From Nitrososphaerota archaeon (GTDB taxonomy: Archaea; Thermoproteota; Nitrososphaeria_A; Caldarchaeales; Caldarchaeaceae): a stretch of 64,000 bases of DNA. Made by a program: the position numbers and the translations under genes. The DNA lies in assembly GCA_041641305.1 (NCBI GenBank), contig JBEPYN010000002.1:352001-416000 (forward strand), written 5' to 3'. The notes beneath the pieces are model-generated. The model searched no databases and had not been told where the DNA came from. It saw only the letters and a program-made list of their open reading frames with translations. The stretch's first letter is position 1; every line of letters starts with the position of its first letter. This document shows positions 13,745 through 27,191 of the stretch, piece after piece.

Positions 13745-13960
13745 TACCTTCCACCTATTTTCGGTCACAGGATAATCCGCTCTAATTCGCCAAAATTTCG
13801 GCTTTCTACAGGGAGGGCTTGACCATATATGGTCAAAGCAGCCCTCACGTATCTTGAAGCGTAATACTTCTTGGGTAATTTCGGTCGCCAGATAATTGGG
13901 CCTAATTCCCGGAAATTTCGCCTCTCCACGGATACTCGTTGACCATATATTGTCAAAAAA
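13738..13960. repeat. Imperfect tandem repeat with a 120-bp period, each unit containing TTGACCATATAT(G/T)GTCAA
   Basis: Blocks AGCGTAATAC, TTTCGGTC, GATAAT, CTAATTC, AAATTTCG and the palindrome recur exactly 120 bp apart (palindromes at 13819-13836 and 13939-13956). Confidence 0.85.
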
Positions 13961-14020
13961 TAGCAAATTTTTTCCGACTTGCCCTCATTTTCTTATATCC
14001 ACCTAGTCTAATCTAAACAA

Positions 14021-14386
14021 TTGGTTATGAATCCGGTGTTCTTTGAAGACATTTCCGTGGTCAAGTATTGCTCCAACTGTGGAGTGCACATGTATTTCGC
14101 GGGTGATGAATGTCCGGGTTGCTCTGAACTTCTCATCGTCGAGTTTCATACTCGTAGGAAAAACCGCCTCCCAGTGTATCTGGTGAGGAAAGGGGGAAGG
14201 TATAGACATGGTTTCAAGTATTGCTGCTCCTGCAGGCTCCACATATGGCTGGAAGGAGGTTTACAAAGGTGCCCGTTCTGTAAAAGACTTGTTCGTAACG
14301 GTCCACGGGGCAAACACAATGGAGATGGGAAACCGAGAGTAGATATATCCACTTTGGAAGAGGAAGAATACGGCTCTATGTTTTAA
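14021..14386 (+). CDS. Double C4 zinc-finger protein, family copy 3
   Basis: KYCSNC..CPGC and GFKYCCSC..RCPFC..VR.GPR. Confidence 0.75.
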   Translation: MVMNPVFFEDISVVKYCSNCGVHMYFAGDECPGCSELLIVEFHTRRKNRLPVYLVRKGGRYRHGFKYCCSCRLHIWLEGGLQRCPFCKRLVRNGPRGKHNGDGKPRVDISTLEEEEYGSMF

Positions 14387-14801
14387 CCTCTATGAGATTA
14401 TCCTCTACATGAAGGCCTTCATCAATTAGTTTTTCGCTCAGTTCTTTGGCTCTCCGCGCTATTCTAATCATCCTCTCCCTAGGAGATTCAAGAGCTATGA
14501 GCCTGAAGCTAGCCGGCTGCTTAGCCACCTCATCGATGCTCTCGATAGCTGCTGCCAAGAGCGCGGCCTTGGTAAGCGGCATGGTTATAGGCAGCTTGAG
14601 GAGCCAATTGTCGCCGCTTCTCTCCAGTAGACATCTGCCTGCTTCACCTGTTGCTTGGAGGCGGCTCAGGGATATGTTCTCTAGGATGTCTGTGTTCCCG
14701 TAGAGGGCTCCGAATATCTGCTTATCAGAGACTTCTCCGTCGACCTTGATGGAGAAAACCAACGTGGACTCATGTTTGTAGCTGTTCTGAATGCTCTGCA
14801 T
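14376..14801 (-). CDS. Stand-alone homologue of the archaeal DnaG N-terminal domain (no TOPRIM)
   Basis: DGEV...IFGALYGNT, LQATGEAGR, ALLAAAIESIDEV and RAKEL resemble the recalled archaeal DnaG N-terminus (GVV.KPDVVGAIFGQTE, LQ.TGRIGR, A.LAA.LE.IDRVGP, RAK.I). Confidence 0.7.
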   Translation of the reverse strand: MQSIQNSYKHESTLVFSIKVDGEVSDKQIFGALYGNTDILENISLSRLQATGEAGRCLLERSGDNWLLKLPITMPLTKAALLAAAIESIDEVAKQPASFRLIALESPRERMIRIARRAKELSEKLIDEGLHVEDNLIEVKT

Positions 14802-14802
14802 G

Positions 14803-14970
14803 TCACCACCTCCTAACTACCTGTTTTCCACCGTTTCTTTTATCACGGTTGTTTCCGTTGAATGGTCTAAACAGCCTCATGAAAAAGAGGCCCAACGCAA
14901 ACCTTGCTTTTCGGCTAATCATGAGGAAGAGGACGACGGCCATGGCGATGACGAGTAATGGTAGACTCAT
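14803..14970 (-). CDS. 55-aa small membrane protein not in the ORF track (MSLPLLVIAMAVVLFLMISRKAR...)
   Basis: Manual translation; promoter GGCCTCATCCCCTTAAAT (14994-15011) lies 23 nt upstream; its 3' end contains the AGGAGGTG Shine-Dalgarno of the next gene. Confidence 0.7.
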   Translation of the reverse strand: MSLPLLVIAMAVVLFLMISRKARFALGLFFMRLFRPFNGNNRDKRNGGKQVVRRW

Positions 14971-14995
14971 GGTTTTAGGGATTATAATGATGGAT

Positions 14996-17338
14996 TTAAG
15001 GGGATGAGGCCTCTGTCGCTACAACATCATGTATGTTTACTGTCATCGCTCCATCTATTCTTATGAAGGATGCTATGGCCTTGAATGTCTTCCCTTTCTT
15101 GAGAAGGTCCCGTGGCCCTTGATAGGTTGCTGGCTCCAGCCTAGCCCTGAAGCTATCATCGACAACCACTACCGCGAAACCGGGGTAAACCTTCTCAACC
15201 CTGATGGTGTGAACCTTGGATGGAGCTTTGGCTGCTTTCACCGCAGCTTTCGCCACATACCTGTCACCAGCCTTCACCACCAGCCCCTCGCCGACAAGCC
15301 TGTTGATGGACATTCTCACGATATCCGGGTCGTATTCGACAGCTTGCAGGGCATCGGCAAAGGATAATCCTTTTTCCCCAGAGTTAAGTATCAGCTCGTA
15401 GAGCCTCTTCCTGCATGCAAATAGCTCGCCGTGGGATATCTTACGCGCGGTTACATAAACAGGTTCGCCGTCCTCGGCCTGAACATATTCTGTCGGCTTG
15501 GTCTGCCTAAGCCATGGCCATGGCTTACCCGGCTCAGGCTCCGGCCCCTTCCTACCCAGCTTGAACCCCTCTAGTTTCTTAGCTACTTTCTCCAACAGCT
15601 TCGCCATCTTCTTCGCCCTCCGGTAGCCCTCGGCGAAGTAGTATTCGTCAACCGTGTCTTCGGCGAGGAGGATGGTCACCTTGCCCGGCAGCCTTCGGCC
15701 GGTTCTGCCCCTTCTCTGGATGTAGCGTATCCCCGATATCGCCGGCTCGTAGAAAATCACGTATCCGCACTCCGGTATGTCTAGCCCCTCCTCTCCAATG
15801 GATGTGGCGACGAGTATGTTGAACTCTCCTTCCCTGAACCCTTTCAGCACCCTCATCTGCTCCTCTTGGCTCATCTTGGGCCCTTCCTTGCCCTCGCCCT
15901 TGCCGACGAACATCTTAGCCCTGTAGCCGAGCTGGCTGAGCCTCCACGTAACCACCTCAGCCGTGTTCCTGATGTTAGCGAAGACCATGACCCTGTCGCC
16001 GGGTTTCTCGCTGAAGTGCTGCGACAGCCTGTTGAGCAAAGCCTCTACCTTTGGATGGTCTAGGCTGCATTTCTCCGCCAGCTCAGCTATTCTATGGAAG
16101 TCCCCGCTTGACGCGAGCATTCTATGGCTCCTCAGCTCCGAGGACTTTACGTCGTTGAGGTATTGCCTCAGGCTGTATACATGCTGGCTCTCTATCAGCT
16201 CTAGCGCATGGTATAGGCTGAGGACCTCGGATATCATGGCCATGTAATGCATGTTCCGCCCCTTTATTCCAGAGCTTATCTCGGCCCTCAGCCTATTCAT
16301 CGCCTGCACGAGGGCGGCTCTGGTGACGTTTTTCAGAGGCATCCTCACTACGCCGAAGCCCTGTAGCTGTCTTACCCTGTTCTCTATCGCTGCCTTGATT
16401 GCTGACCTTATCTCCTCATACTCCTTTGGTAGCTTGACCCTGACCCAGTCAACCTTCACCCCGGGTATGTAGCTCGATACTTCTTCATGCTCCTCGCTCC
16501 TCCACGATATCTTTTCTATCCATAGGTTCTTCACAACCTCCATCACCCTGTCCTCGTCGCTTCCGGGGCTGGCTGTGAGAGCAAGGATGCGGGGCCATGG
16601 GCAGCTTCTGACGTATTCTGAAGCCAGCCTAGTGTATGCGTACCGGCTTCTGCTTCTATGGCACTCGTCAAAGACTAGAAGCGCGAACTCCTCAAGCCTT
16701 ACCCAGCCGCGCCTATAGTCGTTGTAAGCCGTCTGGGGTGTGGAGAACACTATCCTGACGGATGGGCTGCCCCAAGCCATTTTCCTGACGCTTTCACCGG
16801 TTTCCCCAGTTACTGCGACAGCCTCGTCCTCCGAAATGTTTAGGTGTTTGAGGAAGCTCTGCCTGTGCTGGAGGACTAGAGGTTTTGTAGGTGCCATAAC
16901 AAGTATCCTGCAGCCGGGGTGCCTGTGAAGTAGTTCGGCTGCAGCTAGCTCAGCTATCACAGTTTTCCCCAATGCCGTTGGCAGAACCACCAATGTATTG
17001 TTTTTGAGAGCTTCCTCAACCATGTTCCTCTGGTATTCTCGGTCCTCTATTGTGTCCGGCTTAACCATCGGATGGCTGACAAACACATGCCTATCAAGAG
17101 GCTGCTCAACAACTTTCCTATCCTTTTTCTTCTCCGCCTCTGTCTTCTTCGGGGGCGGTGGAGTTGTTAACAGGCCTTCAGCAACCTTAACCGCGTAAAT
17201 ATGCTTACAGTCTCTTACCAACTTTTTTGCTCTGAAGACATAGTCTGGGCATGTGCATGAGAATTTTTCACCATCAAAAGTCACCCTATAGATTTTTGTG
17301 GGGTCTTCTTGGCTGGGTATGTCCCAGTGGACCGGCAT
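14996..17338 (-). CDS. Hef/FANCM(Mph1)-like helicase with N-terminal SWIM finger and no ERCC4 nuclease domain
   Basis: REYQ, LPTALGKT, DECHR, LTASPG, ATSIGEEGLDIP, QRRGRTGR motifs; SWIM CTC...CKH at the N-terminus. Confidence 0.88.
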   Translation of the reverse strand: MPVHWDIPSQEDPTKIYRVTFDGEKFSCTCPDYVFRAKKLVRDCKHIYAVKVAEGLLTTPPPPKKTEAEKKKDRKVVEQPLDRHVFVSHPMVKPDTIEDREYQRNMVEEALKNNTLVVLPTALGKTVIAELAAAELLHRHPGCRILVMAPTKPLVLQHRQSFLKHLNISEDEAVAVTGETGESVRKMAWGSPSVRIVFSTPQTAYNDYRRGWVRLEEFALLVFDECHRSRSRYAYTRLASEYVRSCPWPRILALTASPGSDEDRVMEVVKNLWIEKISWRSEEHEEVSSYIPGVKVDWVRVKLPKEYEEIRSAIKAAIENRVRQLQGFGVVRMPLKNVTRAALVQAMNRLRAEISSGIKGRNMHYMAMISEVLSLYHALELIESQHVYSLRQYLNDVKSSELRSHRMLASSGDFHRIAELAEKCSLDHPKVEALLNRLSQHFSEKPGDRVMVFANIRNTAEVVTWRLSQLGYRAKMFVGKGEGKEGPKMSQEEQMRVLKGFREGEFNILVATSIGEEGLDIPECGYVIFYEPAISGIRYIQRRGRTGRRLPGKVTILLAEDTVDEYYFAEGYRRAKKMAKLLEKVAKKLEGFKLGRKGPEPEPGKPWPWLRQTKPTEYVQAEDGEPVYVTARKISHGELFACRKRLYELILNSGEKGLSFADALQAVEYDPDIVRMSINRLVGEGLVVKAGDRYVAKAAVKAAKAPSKVHTIRVEKVYPGFAVVVVDDSFRARLEPATYQGPRDLLKKGKTFKAIASFIRIDGAMTVNIHDVVATEASSP

Positions 17339-17394
17339 CTGAGTGGAAGAAGGCCCTAGACTCTTAAATATTTTGAGTGACCTAGTGACTTCGG

Positions 17395-17682
17395 ATGAGT
17401 TATAGAAAAGGCCGGAGATTCGAGTATGAGGTTAGGGATTATTTTGAGAGGAGAGGATGGCTTGTTATCAGGGCTGCTAGAAGCAGGCCCGTTGACTTGG
17501 TGTGTATAAAGGATGGGAAAGTTATGCTGGTTGAATGCAAGTACGCTGGAGGCAGGGTTCAAAAAGATGAGCGGAAAGCTCTTGAGAAAATGGGTGAAAA
17601 ACATGGAGTGGATGTGGCTGTTGTGCGGAGAAAGAGGAGAGGCGTGATAGAGATTGAGCCGCTCTATTCCGGAGGCGTGTAG
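17395..17682 (+). CDS. hjc: Holliday junction resolvase, Hjc family
   Basis: YRKGRRFE, VIRAARS..VDL, LVECK (PD-(D/E)xK); promoter GGCCCTAGACTCTTAAAT at 17352-17369. Confidence 0.85.
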   Translation: MSYRKGRRFEYEVRDYFERRGWLVIRAARSRPVDLVCIKDGKVMLVECKYAGGRVQKDERKALEKMGEKHGVDVAVVRRKRRGVIEIEPLYSGGV

Positions 17683-18056
17683 GGCTCTATCCTTGTTTCG
17701 CATCCACAGCGTGGACAGGGCGGCCTAGTCTTGCCAACTATCTCAGGCCACCTGTGTCCACATTGTTGGTCTGTGCAGACTGCTGTGACGACTTGAAGCT
17801 CCCCCTGCTCTCTCATCTTATGAATCTCCCAGTCTTCATACATCTGGGCCGGTGACATTGTTGTGAAGCTTTCACTAGAGGGGTATTCAGCGTAGCATTT
17901 AGGGCATCTATAGGATGAGCTGACAAGTTTCCAATATTTACTCCCATGGTGGTCGATGCTCAGCAGATACTCCTGTGTAACAACGAGCGTGTGTAGGGTG
18001 GAGTTGCAGTTCGGGCATTTGAGAACCTTCTCAAACCTCGGAGGGCCTATCATCAT
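17664..18056 (-). CDS. Multi-zinc-ribbon protein
   Basis: Four Cys pairs. Confidence 0.65.
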   Translation of the reverse strand: MMIGPPRFEKVLKCPNCNSTLHTLVVTQEYLLSIDHHGSKYWKLVSSSYRCPKCYAEYPSSESFTTMSPAQMYEDWEIHKMREQGELQVVTAVCTDQQCGHRWPEIVGKTRPPCPRCGCETRIEPYTPPE

Positions 18057-18098
18057 GGATATGCTTAGCTGTCCCTGCTTTGGTTAAAAACCTGTCGG

Positions 18099-18416
18099 TT
18101 ATATTTCCAGCGCCTCTCCGCCTTCTTCGGAAGCCGGGTTGAGTCTCTCTATTGCGTCTAGAACCTCTTCAAGCCTTTTATCTTCTAGTAGCCTTCTGAA
18201 CCTCTCCAGCTCATCACGTCTCCTCAGCATGAGGCCTCGTCTCTTAGTAGGCGCCCCGTCTTCTCCGACAGGGTTGACCTCGACCAGTAGTGAAGCAGAC
18301 CTGCCACGCGAGGCCGGAGCCTTCACCACGAATATTCCCGGAGAGCCTTTGACTGGGACACGCTGCCAGTCCTTACCTGTCTCAAGAAACCTCTCAAGCG
18401 CGTCCGTCATAGCCAT
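18099..18416 (-). CDS. Conserved-looking archaeal hypothetical protein
   Basis: FL..GKDW, G.FVVK.P, EVNP...G.P.KRRGL pattern recalled from archaeal hypotheticals; function unknown. Confidence 0.65.
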   Translation of the reverse strand: MAMTDALERFLETGKDWQRVPVKGSPGIFVVKAPASRGRSASLLVEVNPVGEDGAPTKRRGLMLRRRDELERFRRLLEDKRLEEVLDAIERLNPASEEGGEALEI

Positions 18417-18448
18417 GGCTTCAATGCTTCAAAGCAGGAGATAACCTT

Positions 18449-19069
18449 TCAAGGCCACCTGTTTTCGGCACGTATAGTTTGGAAGGCTACCGCGAGTATG
18501 ATGTATCCTGCGATTGAGATATACACGCCCACGAATACTAGGGCCAGCACCGCTCCCAAAAACAGTAACAGCCCGCTCGTCTTGAACGTTTTAATACCCA
18601 GTCTGTCGCCCACTATGTCGAGCGATTTCTTGAGGAGGAAAGCTGATGCAATGGTGAATATTGCGGATATCCCAATCACGGCTATGGCTCCGAATAGATA
18701 ATACGAAGGAAACGTGAACGCGTACGTGTAGGGGTCGGGGGAGCCCAGCACCGAGGCGTAGGCTGGAGGCCACGCCAGCATCAGCAGAACCACAGCAACC
18801 ATTCCAGCAACCGTAGCCGCGGCGCTGTATAGCGCAAACCTGTATATTTCGGGTTGTTTAACAGCCTCTGATATACGCTTCAACGCTATTACGACAGCTA
18901 TAATCCCAGCAGTTGTCAGCGGCCCTCCGATAGCAATCGTGACAATCGGTATGTAGGCCAGCAGCATGGAAAACAGCAGGCCGACTGTGGATATGATTGC
19001 TCCGGTTGAGCCAATCTTCCGAGCGTTAGCCAACATTGCCGCCTCCATACCACAGCAAATCATGCTCAC
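18449..19069 (-). CDS. DUF996-like integral membrane protein
   Basis: Several TM helices with an ALKRIS...IYR and F.T.GLL.F.GA pattern. Confidence 0.65.
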   Translation of the reverse strand: MSMICCGMEAAMLANARKIGSTGAIISTVGLLFSMLLAYIPIVTIAIGGPLTTAGIIAVVIALKRISEAVKQPEIYRFALYSAAATVAGMVAVVLLMLAWPPAYASVLGSPDPYTYAFTFPSYYLFGAIAVIGISAIFTIASAFLLKKSLDIVGDRLGIKTFKTSGLLLFLGAVLALVFVGVYISIAGYIILAVAFQTIRAENRWP

Positions 19070-19124
19070 GGATAAAATCGTTTAACGCGTTTATCAGCTT
19101 ATTTGCGCGCGTCGCGTAGAACAG

Positions 19125-21926
19125 TTGATGGGCAGGGCGCTGAGGCGTGGTCTCTATATCTCCTCAATCGTGTTGGCAGCTCTCTGGGCAGCGGCCACCG
19201 TGTACCCGGTGCAGCTCTCCATAGCCGAGGAATGGTACGAGGAGTGGGATAGGGGTATGGTCTATCTAACCGCTAACAGGCAACCGGTGTACGTCATGGC
19301 TGTGTACTCCGTCGACTTCACCGGCAACGGGACCTTAGCCTTCAACTGGACGGTAATCGACCCACGGCTCTATGCGGACGTTGTTACCCATATGTCGGGC
19401 ATCATACGGTTCATGGAGCCATACGAGCGTGTGCCAATGGTTGCGGACGAGGTTGTCCTCTTCCAGAGAAGGGGTGAAGTAGCACTATGGCTGCCGGGCG
19501 TGGTTGAGCCGTTTGACACAGGTCTTCTTCTCGGCCGGCCGGCGGTAGCAAACTCTACTCATCTATACTTCGCGGGCCCCACCAAGCTGTGCGAGGGCCT
19601 GTTCTCAGGTGAGCGGGTTCCGGTGTATTGTCGCCCGTATAGGGGCGGGAGGCTTTTCCACCTAGCCGTCAACGGCAGCGTACTCGGGCTCTCCATTGTA
19701 AACGGCTCCGCTTGGCTCGTCAAGATGGTTAAACGGGGTGAGACATGGCATACCATACCTGTTTACAGGCTCGGCGCCGGCATGGTTCCGACCTCGCTGT
19801 CCGCGGGCCATGGAGTGGTCGTCGCCTCAGCCTCCGCCGTAGAGTCTGGCAAAATATGGTCAACTATCCTGGTTGAGGCTGGTGGAAACGTTTCGGTGGT
19901 TAAGCGGCCTCTGGACATCAGGGATGCTAAGGTGATGCCCGAGGGATACGTGGCGTTGGCTTACACCAACGCTAGCGGCGGCTATGTCGAGGTGTTCGGC
20001 ACCGCCAGAGGATATAGGGCGGTTAAGCAGTTGGATATGAGGCCGTATTTTATCAAGCCGCTGGTGGGCGACCGCCTGCTGGTAGGCGGCTCATCCAGCA
20101 ACGGCGCAGCTCTTCAGATACTTAGGCTGGAGAAGCCTGTTAAGGTCTTCGAGGTTCTCCGCGACTACTACATTATTCTCACGGGGGCCGTGGTTGTGTT
20201 TGCCGTGGTTTCGTTGTCTCTTGTTTTGAGGTCGCGTTCAGAGCTTGCCGCCGTGGCTCTTATACCCGCTCTAATAAACATCGCTCCACCTGTGCAGCCT
20301 CAGAGCCAGTTCTCTATCGTGGAGGATTTGGACAGGGAGCTGAGGGGGCTGGAGGCTGTGCTCTCCGCCGCCGACTCCTTCATGGTGTCCACGTATCTGC
20401 TGAGAGCTCTGGACAGGTTGGGTGACGAGCCCCTCAAACTATACCTTAAGCTGCTGAGCTCGAGGGCCCGGGATGCGATTCTCGCGGGTAACGTGCTTGA
20501 GGCCGAGTACACTCTCTACACGGTCTCCAAGATGCTGGAATTATCCGGCGCGGACCGTAGGCTGTTGCTGGACAGCGTCAGGCGAGGGGCCTATGCTCTG
20601 GCGCTCATGCCGTATGTCACCGACGCCGAATTCGCCGAATACATGAACGAGGTTGAGAGAAGGTCGGCCGAGGTGGGCCGCATAGTCGAGGAGATGAGAG
20701 CCAGAGGCTTCGAGGTCCGGTTTGAGGTAAGGGTTGTCGGCGGCTCGCCGATTGTATTCCTGCTGGTGGTGAACATTGTCTACGCCGGGCTGGTTGCCTA
20801 CGGCGTTTACAGCTTTATCGCCGACGCCTTCATCGACAGGATAATCCAGTACGGGTATGCCCTTGCTGGGATAAGGCTGTCTCATGCCGAGTATGTTGGG
20901 ATGCTGGCGGCCGATACAGCGGTCGAGACCATGGAGGCATTAAGCGATGTGAAGGGTGTGACTTCCATGGTGCGCCGGCTCAACGACGAGAAGATTATGC
21001 AGACATGGTACAGGGTCATGGACGGCAGCCCTCTCAGAGAGCTGGAGAGGTTTGAGCAGATAGGGAGCCCGGTGGCTAGGAGGGAGCTGGCTGATAGGCT
21101 TAGGGAGTTCTGCGAAACACTGAGTCCTGAGATTAGGGGCAGTATCTGTGGCTTGTCGGGTTTTGCGTCTGACATGGAGCACTTCGTGGCAGAGGTTCTG
21201 GAGGAGGTTATGCATATCGATAAAAGGCGTCAGCGAGCGGTGTATGATGAATTCCGTGAAAAGGTTGTACAAGAGTTACTTGAATTTGCGAAAAACCTTG
21301 CCGCGGATGTTGTATTGAAGAGAACAGGCCTCGCCCGGATGCATGCTCTCATGCATAACCCCGTTCTAAGCGAGATGGGTTACCTTGTCGAGGAGCTTGG
21401 GTCGCCGTTGGATTTCTTCAGACAGAAGCTGTACCTGATGCTGTTCCTCAGAAACTTCATGGCGTATCTCAGGGGAGAGGTGGAGCAGCAGCCGCTTATA
21501 CCTGTGGTTTTCACTGTCACGGCTCTTGAGAACAAGCATGGCTGCAGGTTTGGCGATATGATGACGTATCTGCTTCCCCCGGTCTATGTTAGCGGCACGG
21601 AGGAGGTTGAGGTGGATGCCGGCGTCAGGGTGAGGTATGTATCGCTTCACGGCACCTATGTCGTCAGGGTAGAGGACACGATGAAGTGCTCTAGCGGGCA
21701 TGAGGACGAGCCTGACTACGACGACCTGATACTGCACATTGTCCCCCAAGGGGTCAACGAGTATGAGGTGGCGACGGCGTATGCGGAGCGGGTGTGGGAG
21801 ATGACCGCCGCCATAGGGCCGTTTGGGCGCAACATAACCCTCACCAACAATGACCTGCTGCTCAAGATACATGAGCCTGCTAAGGTGTTTACCTATCCAA
21901 AGCTCTACGGGGAGGTGGTGAGGTGA
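19125..21926 (+). CDS. Large multi-domain membrane protein (933 aa)
   Basis: Signal peptide, beta-rich ectodomain, internal TM helices, helical region. Confidence 0.8.
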   Translation: MMGRALRRGLYISSIVLAALWAAATVYPVQLSIAEEWYEEWDRGMVYLTANRQPVYVMAVYSVDFTGNGTLAFNWTVIDPRLYADVVTHMSGIIRFMEPYERVPMVADEVVLFQRRGEVALWLPGVVEPFDTGLLLGRPAVANSTHLYFAGPTKLCEGLFSGERVPVYCRPYRGGRLFHLAVNGSVLGLSIVNGSAWLVKMVKRGETWHTIPVYRLGAGMVPTSLSAGHGVVVASASAVESGKIWSTILVEAGGNVSVVKRPLDIRDAKVMPEGYVALAYTNASGGYVEVFGTARGYRAVKQLDMRPYFIKPLVGDRLLVGGSSSNGAALQILRLEKPVKVFEVLRDYYIILTGAVVVFAVVSLSLVLRSRSELAAVALIPALINIAPPVQPQSQFSIVEDLDRELRGLEAVLSAADSFMVSTYLLRALDRLGDEPLKLYLKLLSSRARDAILAGNVLEAEYTLYTVSKMLELSGADRRLLLDSVRRGAYALALMPYVTDAEFAEYMNEVERRSAEVGRIVEEMRARGFEVRFEVRVVGGSPIVFLLVVNIVYAGLVAYGVYSFIADAFIDRIIQYGYALAGIRLSHAEYVGMLAADTAVETMEALSDVKGVTSMVRRLNDEKIMQTWYRVMDGSPLRELERFEQIGSPVARRELADRLREFCETLSPEIRGSICGLSGFASDMEHFVAEVLEEVMHIDKRRQRAVYDEFREKVVQELLEFAKNLAADVVLKRTGLARMHALMHNPVLSEMGYLVEELGSPLDFFRQKLYLMLFLRNFMAYLRGEVEQQPLIPVVFTVTALENKHGCRFGDMMTYLLPPVYVSGTEEVEVDAGVRVRYVSLHGTYVVRVEDTMKCSSGHEDEPDYDDLILHIVPQGVNEYEVATAYAERVWEMTAAIGPFGRNITLTNNDLLLKIHEPAKVFTYPKLYGEVVR

Positions 21927-21927
21927 T

Positions 21928-22953
21928 ATGAACCTTCTCGGGCTTAAGCTCAAGATGTATCTGGTGTTCTCCCTGATTATGGCTTACATAGCCTTCGGAC
22001 TTGGTGTACACTATGCGGTTGTATGGTTTCTCTCCAGCATAGAGGGGCTTGAGCTCTTGGTGACGATATACAATATCCTCATCATGGTCATGGTGGCTGC
22101 ATTCTTTATGCCTTGGCTGTTCTCTGAAGGGCTGTTCACCAAGGTGCTGTACGCTGACATTGGTCAGGTTTACCACGCTAAGCTTATCCTTGCGGTTATG
22201 AAGGTGTCGAATTTATTCGGCATGGATACGCCTAAGGTGGCTTATTCGCGGAAGCTTATCCCCAACGCGTTCGCCTTCCATGGATTGGGAGGGCCTGTTG
22301 TAGGGGCTACTGATGCCCTCGTGAGAACGCTTCCAGATGATGAGCTGGAGGCGGTGATGGCTCATGAGCTGGCGCATATCAAGAACCGTGACGCGTTATT
22401 TGTGACATCGATAGGTTTGGGTCTGGCCGCTGTTTACACGATTAGCTACCGCGTTATACCTGCTCTGGGAGGCAGGCGGGCCAAGTCGCTGGCGCTGCTC
22501 CTTATGCCGAGCTGGTTCATAGGCCTTGTCGGGATTCCCGTTAGGATGCTTTTCTTCTACTTTAGCAGGCTCAGGGAAGAATACGCGGATGCGGTGGCTG
22601 CTCTGACCCTGCCCGATGGGGCTGACAAGCTTCAGCGGGCGCTCTCCCGCATATACCTGCTCAACCAGAGGCTGGAAAATGCTCCACTTGTTTCAGACCG
22701 TTCTTTCCTGAACGAGTTTTACAAGGAGCTTACGGTCTTTTTGACGCTGGAGAGCTCTGTACCACTCTCTGACGACCCAATGAGAATCATTTTCCACATA
22801 CCTGATGAGGAGGTTCAGCGTGCGGTGGAAAATCTGAAGATGTATAAGCCAAGCATCTGGGAGAGGATTAAGCCGAAGCGCACCCATCCACATATATCGG
22901 ATAGGATAAGGAAGCTGGAAAAACTCAAGCTTCGGCAAGCCCCTCTCCCATGA
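21928..22953 (+). CDS. htpX: HtpX-like M48 membrane zinc protease
   Basis: PNAFA, ELEAVMAHELAHI, SRLREEYAD, THP...RI motifs. Confidence 0.88.
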   Translation: MNLLGLKLKMYLVFSLIMAYIAFGLGVHYAVVWFLSSIEGLELLVTIYNILIMVMVAAFFMPWLFSEGLFTKVLYADIGQVYHAKLILAVMKVSNLFGMDTPKVAYSRKLIPNAFAFHGLGGPVVGATDALVRTLPDDELEAVMAHELAHIKNRDALFVTSIGLGLAAVYTISYRVIPALGGRRAKSLALLLMPSWFIGLVGIPVRMLFFYFSRLREEYADAVAALTLPDGADKLQRALSRIYLLNQRLENAPLVSDRSFLNEFYKELTVFLTLESSVPLSDDPMRIIFHIPDEEVQRAVENLKMYKPSIWERIKPKRTHPHISDRIRKLEKLKLRQAPLP

Positions 22954-23142
22954 GAACATCGCATTCTCAATACTGGCTATTGTGGAGTGTAAGGACCTCG
23001 CTCACATTACCGTGAATTAATGACATGGATTAAAGAGTATGAGGCCATCCTCCGACCTCTGCTAAACATGTCTCTGAGTTGCAGCGTTACAGAAGTGGTA
23101 AACGTTTTACTACAACCTTCTACACATAGTATGTGAAGAGCT

Positions 23143-23289
23143 GTGGCGGGCAAGAAGGCTGCTAAGAAGATGGGGTCGAAGCCGGCGAAGAAGAAGGTGA
23201 AGGCTAAGAGAAAGGCTAAACCTAAACCCGCTCCGCCAGCTCCCTCCGAGAAGCGGGCGGAGTCTGCTGCTGAAGCGCCGGCGATGTAG
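23143..23289 (+). CDS. 48-aa Lys/Ala/Pro-rich histone H1-tail-like protein not in the ORF track
   Basis: Manual translation MAGKKAAKKMGSKPAKKKVKAKRKAKPKPAPPAPSEKRAESAAEAPAM; T-rich run after the stop. Confidence 0.55.
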   Translation: MAGKKAAKKMGSKPAKKKVKAKRKAKPKPAPPAPSEKRAESAAEAPAM

Positions 23290-23836
23290 CCCCAACCCCA
23301 CCCTCATTATTTTTTACATGTATCCCGAGCTTCTCTCTCATTATCTTGGACTTTCGGCATACAGCTACTGTTGAGAAACCGGATGCTCTGGTCACCTCGG
23401 TCAAGGAGCAGCTTGGTGCGGCTGCAATATACAGGGCCGCGGTGGCGGCGATGTATGTGTGTTCTCCATATCTATGCAGGATGCTCGCTGCCTCGTCTAC
23501 GTAGGTCTCTAGACCAAGCTTGGTGGCTAGCATCCTTAGGAAGAGTTGTGCTGACTGTCTCTGGTCAGCCACGGTGCTGTAGCCAAGTGCCTCCGACACC
23601 TTTCTCAGCGTCTTCAGGAAGCCCCTCTTCCTCTGGAGTATTTCCTTTAGCTGGATAGGGTACTGGTTATGTTTGCAGACAATGTAGAGAACCGCGGCCA
23701 CTAGGGTCTCCCCATTCCTTCCCTGCGACAAACCCATTCTCCTGAGCCTTTCCAGCATCTGTCTAGCCAAGTCTACGAGGTGGCTGGGTAACGAGAGGGT
23801 CTCGGCGTAGCTTGTCAGCAGCTCGTCGAGCCTCAT
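23222..23836 (-). CDS. Transcription factor B core homologue (two cyclin folds, no Zn ribbon or B-reader)
   Basis: L.LP....A, QGRNGETLVAAVLYIVCK...PI.LKEI, second repeat AALYIAA and HTH-like SLTEVTRASGFSTVAV. Confidence 0.8.
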   Translation of the reverse strand: MRLDELLTSYAETLSLPSHLVDLARQMLERLRRMGLSQGRNGETLVAAVLYIVCKHNQYPIQLKEILQRKRGFLKTLRKVSEALGYSTVADQRQSAQLFLRMLATKLGLETYVDEAASILHRYGEHTYIAATAALYIAAAPSCSLTEVTRASGFSTVAVCRKSKIMREKLGIHVKNNEGGVGATSPALQQQTPPASRRELAERV

Positions 23837-24016
23837 CCAGTCTTTTTAAACACCTCATGGATAAAAGCTGATGTGGATGCCATCCATAAAACTTGAAATC
23901 ATGTTATCTAACGCCGGTTTCATGGATGGATATGTGGATAATGAGGGGGTGAAGGTGGTTAGTGGAATCGAAGCAGATGATTCGGTTTAAACTCTCTGGT
24001 CTAAACCATTTTTAGC

Positions 24017-24702
24017 ATGTGGGAAAACATTTTGACTGGGATGGTTAAACCATACGCTAAGCTTTACATTCCTGCTTGGATGGCTGTCTATGATAGGCTT
24101 AGACGTGCTAAGGGTAGGCCTTTTAAGACGACTTTGCTGTCGGAGGAGCTGGGGATACCTAGGACGTCGGTGAATCAGGCGCTTCTAGCGCTCCGTGTTA
24201 AAGGGCTCGCCCGCAAGACATCCAATGGCTATGTTTACGATGTCTTCCAAACCGAGCCTGTGAGCAACGGGGGAATTCCATGTTATTCATGTGGCTCTAA
24301 AAGCTATAGGACGGTCTCCGTCACCGTGGCAGGCTCTGAGAAGCTTCTCTGTCTTAATGTCTCTCCCATATCGTTGAACTAGCTCTGAGAATCGCAGGCC
24401 GGCTCAAGAACCTTGAAGGCGGAGACATCCAGAGGCATACAAAGCGGGAAAAGGCTGCGATATATGGCAGGTTTGTAGGGCGTCTCATCTCCTTGGTTGG
24501 GCGTCGGGGTAGGGTTTGCGCCACCTCCCTTGGTCTTCGTCATGGGCTGTCGAAGAGAGAGGTTAGGAGAGTATTGGATAAGATGGCTCCAAAAATGGGC
24601 TGGGTTATTGAGCGGAGGTCTGGCCATCTCTATGTGAGGCCCGGGGAATCTCTTAGGGAGCCGGAGCAGGTTATCGCATCGACTATAAATGGTCAGGGAT
24701 AG
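24017..24702 (+). pseudogene. wHTH - zinc ribbon - HTH protein split by a 1-nt frameshift near 24357
   Basis: ORF 24017-24382 ends ..LLCLN; the -1 frame from 24358 reads CLSHIVELAL... open to 24702 and restores a second CxxC. Confidence 0.65.
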
Positions 24703-27112: not shown

Positions 27113-27191
27113 ACCAATTTAGTAATCTGAGTTGAGGGCTTTAAACTCTCGAGGCCTAGAAAACCTTATTGAAGGAGGCATGTAGAATGCT

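What the first reader, a model, noticed from the sequence alone, without database searches (positions are those of the whole stretch)
23222..23836. Ribbon-less TFB with a rewritten BRE-recognition helix: candidate reader of the GGCC promoters
Seen: only the two cyclin folds; the HTH reads SLTEVTRASGFSTVAVCRK against the canonical TQREVAEVA.VTEVT(I/V)RNR, so the conserved Gln and Arg are replaced. Established: this HTH reads the BRE and the Zn ribbon recruits RNAP; Sulfolobus TFB3 is the complementary truncation and works in trans. Inference: a sigma-like specificity switch for the element's promoter class (a split TFB), or a dominant-negative inhibitor of host transcription.
Basis: partly seen in the sequence, partly recalled or inferred. 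Interest (0 to 1): 0.82.

Follow-up and report, generated by a model that had tools for sequence, protein, structure and literature searches.

The report
Swappable half-TFB on archaeal conjugative element
A mobile element in a hot-spring archaeon carries, as optional cargo, a conserved half-copy of the basal transcription factor TFB that lacks the part that recruits RNA polymerase; near-identical elements without it keep all their special GGCC promoters, so it is not their required reader and is more likely a brake on transcription.

Summary
23222-23836(-) encodes two TFIIB cyclin folds with no Zn ribbon, and the BRE-reading Gln and Arg are replaced. Three orthologs (91, 81, about 49% identical) begin at the same helix; dN/dS is about 0.17, so it is not a broken gene.

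The GGCC-N8-TATA promoter class is also real: 18 sites in the ~110-kb element versus 11 in the other 1.54 Mb.

In contiguous sister copies of the element (98.6% and 95% identical flanks), bases 23316-23920 are replaced by a five-gene peptidase cassette, yet all ten neighbouring GGCC promoters persist. The recognition helix is eroded and variable rather than rewritten, GGCC lies upstream of the BRE, and no TFB-type ribbon gene was found in the element.

Best reading (0.45, inferred): an accessory natural TFB-deltaN that competes with host TFB for TBP or promoters and cannot recruit polymerase. The GGCC box probably serves an unidentified activator. Virus- and MGE-borne TFBs are published. This scan noted ribbon-less cores before on other DNA, including this gene's C. 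subterraneum ortholog.

The parts
23222..23836 (-). Ribbon-less TFB-core gene, 204 aa
   Evidence: orthologs
23321..23836 (-). Folded part, residues 1-172: two cyclin folds, under purifying selection
   Evidence: AF2 helices at residues 3-170; dN/dS 0.17 versus C. subterraneum ortholog
23327..23407 (-). C-terminal HTH, residues 144-170; canonical BRE-reading Gln and Arg replaced, positions variable among orthologs
23860..23878 (-). Predicted leaderless promoter of the gene: TATA-like CTTTTATC at -31..-24, element-type spacer CATCAG, but ATCC in place of GGCC; similar in orthologs
   Evidence: predicted from position only, no transcript data
23316..23920 (.). Exchangeable cargo slot: replaced in sister elements by a 3.4-kb five-gene cassette (S24/S26-like peptidase plus membrane or secreted proteins)
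   Evidence: read cover
23143..23289 (+). Conserved 48-aa Lys/Ala/Pro-rich ORF, convergent with and overlapping the TFB-core tail; kept in variants with and without the TFB core
24017..24382 (+). Divergent wHTH (TrmB-like) / Zn-finger gene; 121 aa here, 220 aa in sister elements, absent in other alleles
27139..27156 (-). GGCC-class promoter ahead of nurA-herA; kept in TFB-less variants
23029..23046 (-). GGCC-class site just beyond the gene; kept in TFB-less variants
14994..15011 (-). Consensus-like GGCC-class promoter, an example of about 30 in the element

Best explanation
This is an accessory gene of a ~100-kb integrated conjugative element of Ca. Caldarchaeum, and it encodes a natural TFB-deltaN. 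Shown: it has the two cyclin folds, lacks the ribbon, B-reader and B-linker, has lost the canonical BRE-reading residues, is under purifying selection, has its own predicted promoter, and sits in a slot that sister elements fill with other cargo. Inferred: its well-kept first repeat still engages TBP and the DNA backbone, so it occupies or titrates TBP-TATA complexes without recruiting RNA polymerase. It would then damp initiation by host TFB1/TFB2 with little BRE preference, at host promoters or at the element's own weak-BRE promoters. The GGCC box is most likely the site of a separate, unidentified activator that recruits host TFB to a weak BRE.
For: Conserved truncation point in four orthologs, ungapped over 177 aa. 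dN/dS 0.17 at dS 0.52. Repeat-1 motifs GR, YxxCK and the basic helix (K75, R78) are invariant; their role in TBP/DNA contact is from my own knowledge of TFIIB structures. Best fold match is the TBP-TFBc-DNA complex chain 1D3U_B. The ribbon is what recruits RNAP (PMC7289017), and engineered TFB2-deltaN is a competitive dominant negative in S. acidocaldarius. The gene is dispensable for the element and for its GGCC promoters. Host promoters have an A-rich BRE (A at -3 in 58%; GGCC in 1 of 149) while element promoters mostly have C there and GGCCT at -11..-7, the layout of activator-dependent archaeal promoters (PMC5512572).
Against: There is no direct evidence of binding or of expression. The repeat-2 GK(D/S)P loop is deleted and a small Ala/Gly position in repeat 1 is Leu/Phe; from memory both lie at the TBP/DNA interface, so ternary-complex formation may be weakened or lost. 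A broad inhibitor would also hit the element's own genes. dN/dS (0.17) is higher than in neighbouring genes (0.09-0.12).
Confidence: 0.45

Rival explanations
1. Repurposed cyclin-fold protein: it no longer works on promoters but binds a partner of TFB, such as free TBP, an activator that normally recruits TFB, or the machinery that degrades TFB cyclin folds.
For: Loss of BRE residues and of the repeat-2 loop despite purifying selection. Cyclin folds target TFB2 for degradation. Long branch, not nested in host TFB1 or TFB2 in a quick tree.
Against: The protein remains basic (25 K/R versus 15 D/E) and keeps the GR motif and an HTH. No partner was identified.
Confidence: 0.27
2. Split TFB: the core works with a ribbon supplied in trans and activates transcription.
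For: A distantly related ribbon-less core (P0014; grouped with this clade at SH-aLRT 93 in an unfinished quick tree) is followed by a 71-aa gene hitting PF08271 at E 1.8e-6, just under the cut-off. TFB3 acts in trans. The element has many small Zn fingers.
Against: In this genome only TFB1 and TFB2 pass the PF08271 cut-off; the single element hit is partial, E 0.025. Searches with the TFB1 N-terminus and the 71-aa protein find no ribbon gene in the element. No ribbon gene travels with the core in four loci.
Confidence: 0.1
3. One reading: the rewritten helix reads GGCC and switches polymerase to the element's promoters.
For: Gene and motif lie in one element. The P0003 contig also has a GGCC site. 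The gene's own promoter lacks GG. One MAG (GCA_038827915.1) holds both alleles, so supply in trans is conceivable there.
Against: Nine of ten loci shown for the neighbouring peptidase lack the gene at this slot, and the five of them that I scanned keep the promoters. Depth over the gene's bin is 3.4 versus about 19 in run X8 and 0.24 versus 8.5 in run X17. G002, G003 and G004 (92-95% complete) have the motif but only two TFBs. The helix residues are variable and apolar, and GGCC lies upstream of the BRE.
Confidence: 0.06
4. Decaying relic of a captured TFB with no present function.
For: Rare (three protein clusters; 2 of 75 genomes of the order), dispensable, with internal deletions.
Against: Intact frame, same start and similar promoter down to about 49% identity with near-saturated synonymous sites; dN/dS 0.17.
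Confidence: 0.1

Closest known systems
Archaeal TFB core domain (P. woesei TFBc, PDB 1AIS/1D3U; Pfam PF00382 x2)
   Same: Two cyclin folds with a C-terminal HTH; best sequence and fold match; repeat-1 motifs kept.
   Different: Occurs naturally without ribbon, B-reader and B-linker; BRE-reading Gln and Arg gone; repeat-2 GK(D/S)P loop deleted; about 25-30% identical to host TFBs.
Engineered TFB2-deltaN of Sulfolobus acidocaldarius (bioRxiv 10.64898/2026.09.06.749720)
   Same: Same truncation logic: promoter-binding half without RNAP recruitment, shown there to act as a competitive dominant negative.
   Different: That protein is artificial and keeps the rest of native TFB2; this one is natural, element-borne, BRE-eroded and untested.
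TFB homologs of archaeal viruses and MGEs (Italian rudiviruses, Asgard viruses and MGEs, YNP1; PMC9501531, PMC13700489, bioRxiv 10.1101/2021.07.29.453957; phrog_20431)
   Same: A TFB homolog on a mobile element, with the same open question of promoter preference.
   Different: The PHROG profile is 293 positions and the YNP1 protein 334 aa, against about 172 folded residues here. The passages I read do not describe a core-only form.
Sulfolobus TFB3
   Same: A non-canonical TFB paralog that cannot replace TFB (PMC7289017).
   Different: TFB3 activates in trans and, from my own knowledge, keeps the N-terminal part; this is the opposite half, and no partner was found.
Activator-dependent weak-BRE promoters (TFB-RF1, ara-box, EarA; PMC5512572)
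   Same: A fixed box just upstream of a non-consensus BRE, which fits the GGCC class.
   Different: The GGCC-binding factor is unidentified, and the class spans a whole mobile element.

Membership tests
TFB/TFIIB family (fold homology) | Two cyclin-fold TFIIB repeats | tested here: met
   Repeat 1 over the Pfam cut-off; ten helices in the model; 1D3U_B aligned over 187 columns. Repeat 2 is too diverged for Pfam TFIIB on its own.
Canonical functional TFB | N-terminal Zn ribbon | tested here: not met
Canonical functional TFB | B-reader and B-linker | tested here: not met
   The protein starts at the first core helix in all orthologs
Canonical functional TFB | BRE-reading HTH motif TQ..(V/I)A....VTEVT(I/V)RNR | tested here: not met
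   Leu145, Thr156, Ala158, Cys160; variable among orthologs
Canonical functional TFB | Forms a ternary complex with TBP and TATA DNA | not testable with these tools
   Needs EMSA or pull-down; sequence signs are mixed (repeat 1 kept, repeat-2 loop deleted)
Promoter-specificity factor for the GGCC class | Present wherever the promoter class is maintained | tested here: not met
   the rest of the long TFB-less contigs could not be scanned
Promoter-specificity factor for the GGCC class | Conserved base-reading residues in the recognition helix | tested here: not met
   STVAVCRK / SVVAICRR / SIAALSNK in three orthologs
Split TFB (core plus separate ribbon) | A co-inherited TFB-type ribbon gene | tested here: not met
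   None in the element or beside orthologs; such a pair exists beside distant P0014
Dominant-negative TFB-deltaN | Core without the RNAP-recruiting N-terminus | tested here: met
Dominant-negative TFB-deltaN | Competes with full-length TFB and lowers transcription | not testable with these tools
   Needs in vitro transcription or expression
MGE-encoded TFB homolog | Lies in a mobile element and is patchy among hosts | tested here: met
   Element with ParB, VirB4/coupling-type ATPases, a PCNA-like gene and pilin-like genes; 2 of 75 genomes

The most novel reading that the evidence does not exclude
Archaeal conjugative elements carry natural dominant-negative TFB cores as interchangeable cargo, acquired more than once (this clade and the separate P0021/P0038 clade). 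They act as global or element-directed transcription brakes, for example to mute host responses or to shut down the activator-dependent GGCC regulon of the same or a rival element.
Probability: 0.3. Interest if true: 0.65.

Novelty: new variant of a known kind. Interest (0 to 1): 0.4.

Why it matters
Whether mobile-element TFB homologs redirect or block host transcription is an open question (PMC9501531). This case offers a natural experiment: near-identical elements with and without the gene. It shows that an element-wide private promoter class does not depend on the element's TFB homolog. If the protein inhibits, it would be a natural counterpart of the engineered TFB-deltaN and an anti-initiation factor acting at the TBP/TFB step rather than on polymerase (as RIP and TFS4 do). 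The separate and still open question is what binds the GGCC box.

Tried and rejected
1. Complex prediction of host TBP with the core gave 'no answer' (score 0.00); not used as evidence either way.
2. Frameshift or mis-called start hiding a ribbon: none in the forward frames, and the upstream DNA differs between orthologs.
3. A second cyclin-fold gene in the element as the alternative reader: none found.
4. The neighbouring wHTH as GGCC reader: rejected, since it is shortened here and absent in the L038 allele, which keeps the promoters. The wHTH at C2:349600 was not found with this query in five relatives. ParB has a close relative only in G002.
5. Host TFB2 as reader: unlikely, since 1 of 149 host promoters has GGCC at that position.
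6. Palindromic (dimer-type) symmetry around GGCC: only at a few sites, so not general.
7. RNA run X20 had four small contigs elsewhere in the stretch and none on this gene; contigs cannot show absence.
8. Scans of viral and metagenome contigs with the core alignment found nothing. The junction pattern was not in genome contigs. Whole-record search of the TFB-less contigs was unavailable.
9. Distant elements (homologs of the 105-aa gene at about 55% identity) show no clear GGCC signal.
10. Literature searches for ribbon-less TFB, for Caldarchaeum TFB and for the BRE contact residues returned nothing.
11. The tree is the quick version only and cannot name a donor.

Full report
Setting. The window is C2:352001-416000 of a 1.66-Mb, 99% complete genome. 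Its relatives are named Ca. Caldarchaeum by the sources. The window lies inside an integrated element of roughly C2:346-455 kb with a PCNA-like gene, ribonucleotide reductase, HerA/NurA, Hjc, a tubulin/FtsZ-like gene, pilin-like genes, ParB and VirB4/coupling-type ATPases. The host has two full-length TFBs outside the element: TFB1 with a canonical HTH, and a second TFB whose HTH is also non-canonical. A changed HTH is therefore not unusual for a paralog.

The observation. ORF 23222-23836(-) is real. It hits Pfam TFIIB at E 6e-13. The AF2 model has ten helices over residues 3-170 and a disordered tail, and its best Foldseek match is P. woesei TFB core, 1D3U_B. A stop lies three codons upstream and no forward frame holds a ribbon. 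Orthologs P0001 (91%), P0002 (C. subterraneum, 81%) and P0003 (about 49%) align without gaps over 177 residues from the same first helix. Against P0002, dN/dS is 0.17 at dS 0.52; neighbouring genes give 0.09-0.12 at dS 0.65-1.7. A predicted leaderless promoter is similar in the orthologs. The gene is thus maintained and is not a broken TFB. The tail is largely the antisense of a conserved Lys-rich 48-aa ORF.

The helix. Among orthologs the recognition helix reads STVAVCRK, SVVAICRR and SIAALSNK. It is small, apolar and variable, and its segment has the highest dN/dS against P0002 (0.27-0.36, few sites). This looks like loss of base reading, not a new code. Repeat 1 keeps GR, YxxCK and a basic helix, while repeat 2 has lost the GK(D/S)P loop. 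That these features lie at the TBP/DNA interface is from my own knowledge, not tested here.

The promoters. GGCC-N8-TTA(A/T)A occurs 18 times in 110 kb of the element and 11 times in the other 1.54 Mb, with no excess at other spacings. A weight matrix finds about 30 element sites, many with a start codon 29 nt after the TATA hexamer. Host promoters have an A-rich BRE and only 1 of 149 has GGCC there. In the element class GGCC sits at -11..-8 from the TATA box, upstream of a BRE that usually has C at -3. This is the layout of activator-dependent weak-BRE promoters such as those of TFB-RF1, the ara-box factor and EarA (PMC5512572).

The co-occurrence test. Among 75 genomes of the order only G000 and G009 have the gene. 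G002, G003 and G004 (92-95% complete) have related elements with GGCC promoters and only two TFBs. In run X8 a contig about 99% identical over 13904-23298 turns into unlike sequence at 23298, and depth over the gene's bin falls to 3.4 against about 19. In run X17 a contig turns off at the same point and depth falls to 0.24 against 8.5. Contiguous assemblies show why: nine of ten loci shown for the neighbouring peptidase have a different cassette in place of the gene. In L164 the flanks are 98.6% and 95.2% identical to the window, bases 23316-23920 are replaced by 3.4 kb, tblastn finds no TFB core, and all ten GGCC promoters between 12.8 and 29.1 kb are kept. The replacing cassette includes an S24/S26-like peptidase. 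Caveats: these assemblies may come from few springs or campaigns, I could not scan the rest of the long contigs, and one MAG holds both alleles.

Split TFB. No PF08271 ribbon beyond TFB1 and TFB2 passes the cut-off, and none travels with the gene. A distant ribbon-less core, P0014, is followed by a 71-aa ribbon-like gene. Split forms may therefore exist elsewhere, which keeps this rival at about 0.1.

Mechanism. The ribbon recruits RNAP (PMC7289017), so the protein cannot start transcription by the known route. An engineered N-terminally truncated TFB2 is a competitive dominant negative in S. acidocaldarius. The best reading is therefore a natural, BRE-blind TFB-deltaN that competes for TBP or TBP-TATA complexes (0.45). 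The rivals are a repurposed cyclin-fold binder (0.27), a split TFB (0.10), a relic (0.10) and the GGCC reader (0.06). All binding and inhibition steps are inferred.

Comparison and novelty. It belongs to the TFB fold family but fails the tests for a canonical TFB, for a GGCC specificity factor and for a split TFB. TFB homologs on archaeal viruses and MGEs are published, with function open. Core-sized TFIIB-repeat clusters of 179-211 aa appear in the ESM Atlas for archaea and viruses. A second ribbon-less lineage, P0021/P0038, sits beside genes resembling those of this element and falls elsewhere in a quick tree. This scan has noted ribbon-less cores several times on other DNA. I found no paper describing a natural core-only TFB, in a limited library. 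Verdict: new variant of a known kind, interest 0.4.

Noticed in passing
window 610-47535 and beyond (C2:347.9-432.7 kb): The GGCC-N8-TATA promoter class (about 30 sites) is element-specific, shared by related Caldarchaeum elements, and its reader is unidentified. This may be the more interesting open question.
   Followed up: partly
window 23143-23289 (+): 48-aa Lys/Ala/Pro-rich peptide, histone-H1-like in composition, conserved in every element variant examined here that covers this slot.
   Followed up: partly
window 24017-24702 (+): wHTH-Zn gene is 121 aa here but 220 aa in sister elements; the C-terminal part continues in another frame (ORF 24493-24702), which suggests a frameshift.
   Followed up: partly
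L164:11464-14769 (-): Alternative cargo of the slot: five genes with an S24/S26-like signal peptidase, three small proteins with N-terminal hydrophobic leaders and a 479-aa protein with a Zn ribbon; similar genes in G003:C41.
   Followed up: partly
L177:6854-7680 (+), GCA_053940465.1: Ribbon-less TFB core (P0014) directly followed by a 71-aa gene hitting the TFB Zn ribbon (PF08271, E 1.8e-6): a candidate split and permuted TFB in another organism.
   Followed up: partly
L054:580-1203 and L093:1077-1688: Second ribbon-less TFB-core lineage (P0038, P0021), next to an AAA gene 71% identical to one in this element and to a protein resembling a doubled form of the 105-aa gene.
   Followed up: partly
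window 18099-18416 (-): 105-aa gene widely shared by hot-spring elements (54 loci); no Pfam or PHROG hit; by eye it resembles the PC4/Sub1 ssDNA-binding pattern (untested).
   Followed up: partly
G000:C1:530535: One high-scoring GGCC-class promoter outside the element; possibly a remnant of a related element.
   Followed up: no
G007:C2:218.7-223.2 kb: About 5-kb element remnant (helicase plus three GGCC sites) between host-like genes.
   Followed up: partly
G000:C2:490.8-491.7 kb: Host second TFB (271-aa frame) has a ribbon, a short linker and a non-canonical HTH, and evolves fast within the genus.
   Followed up: partly
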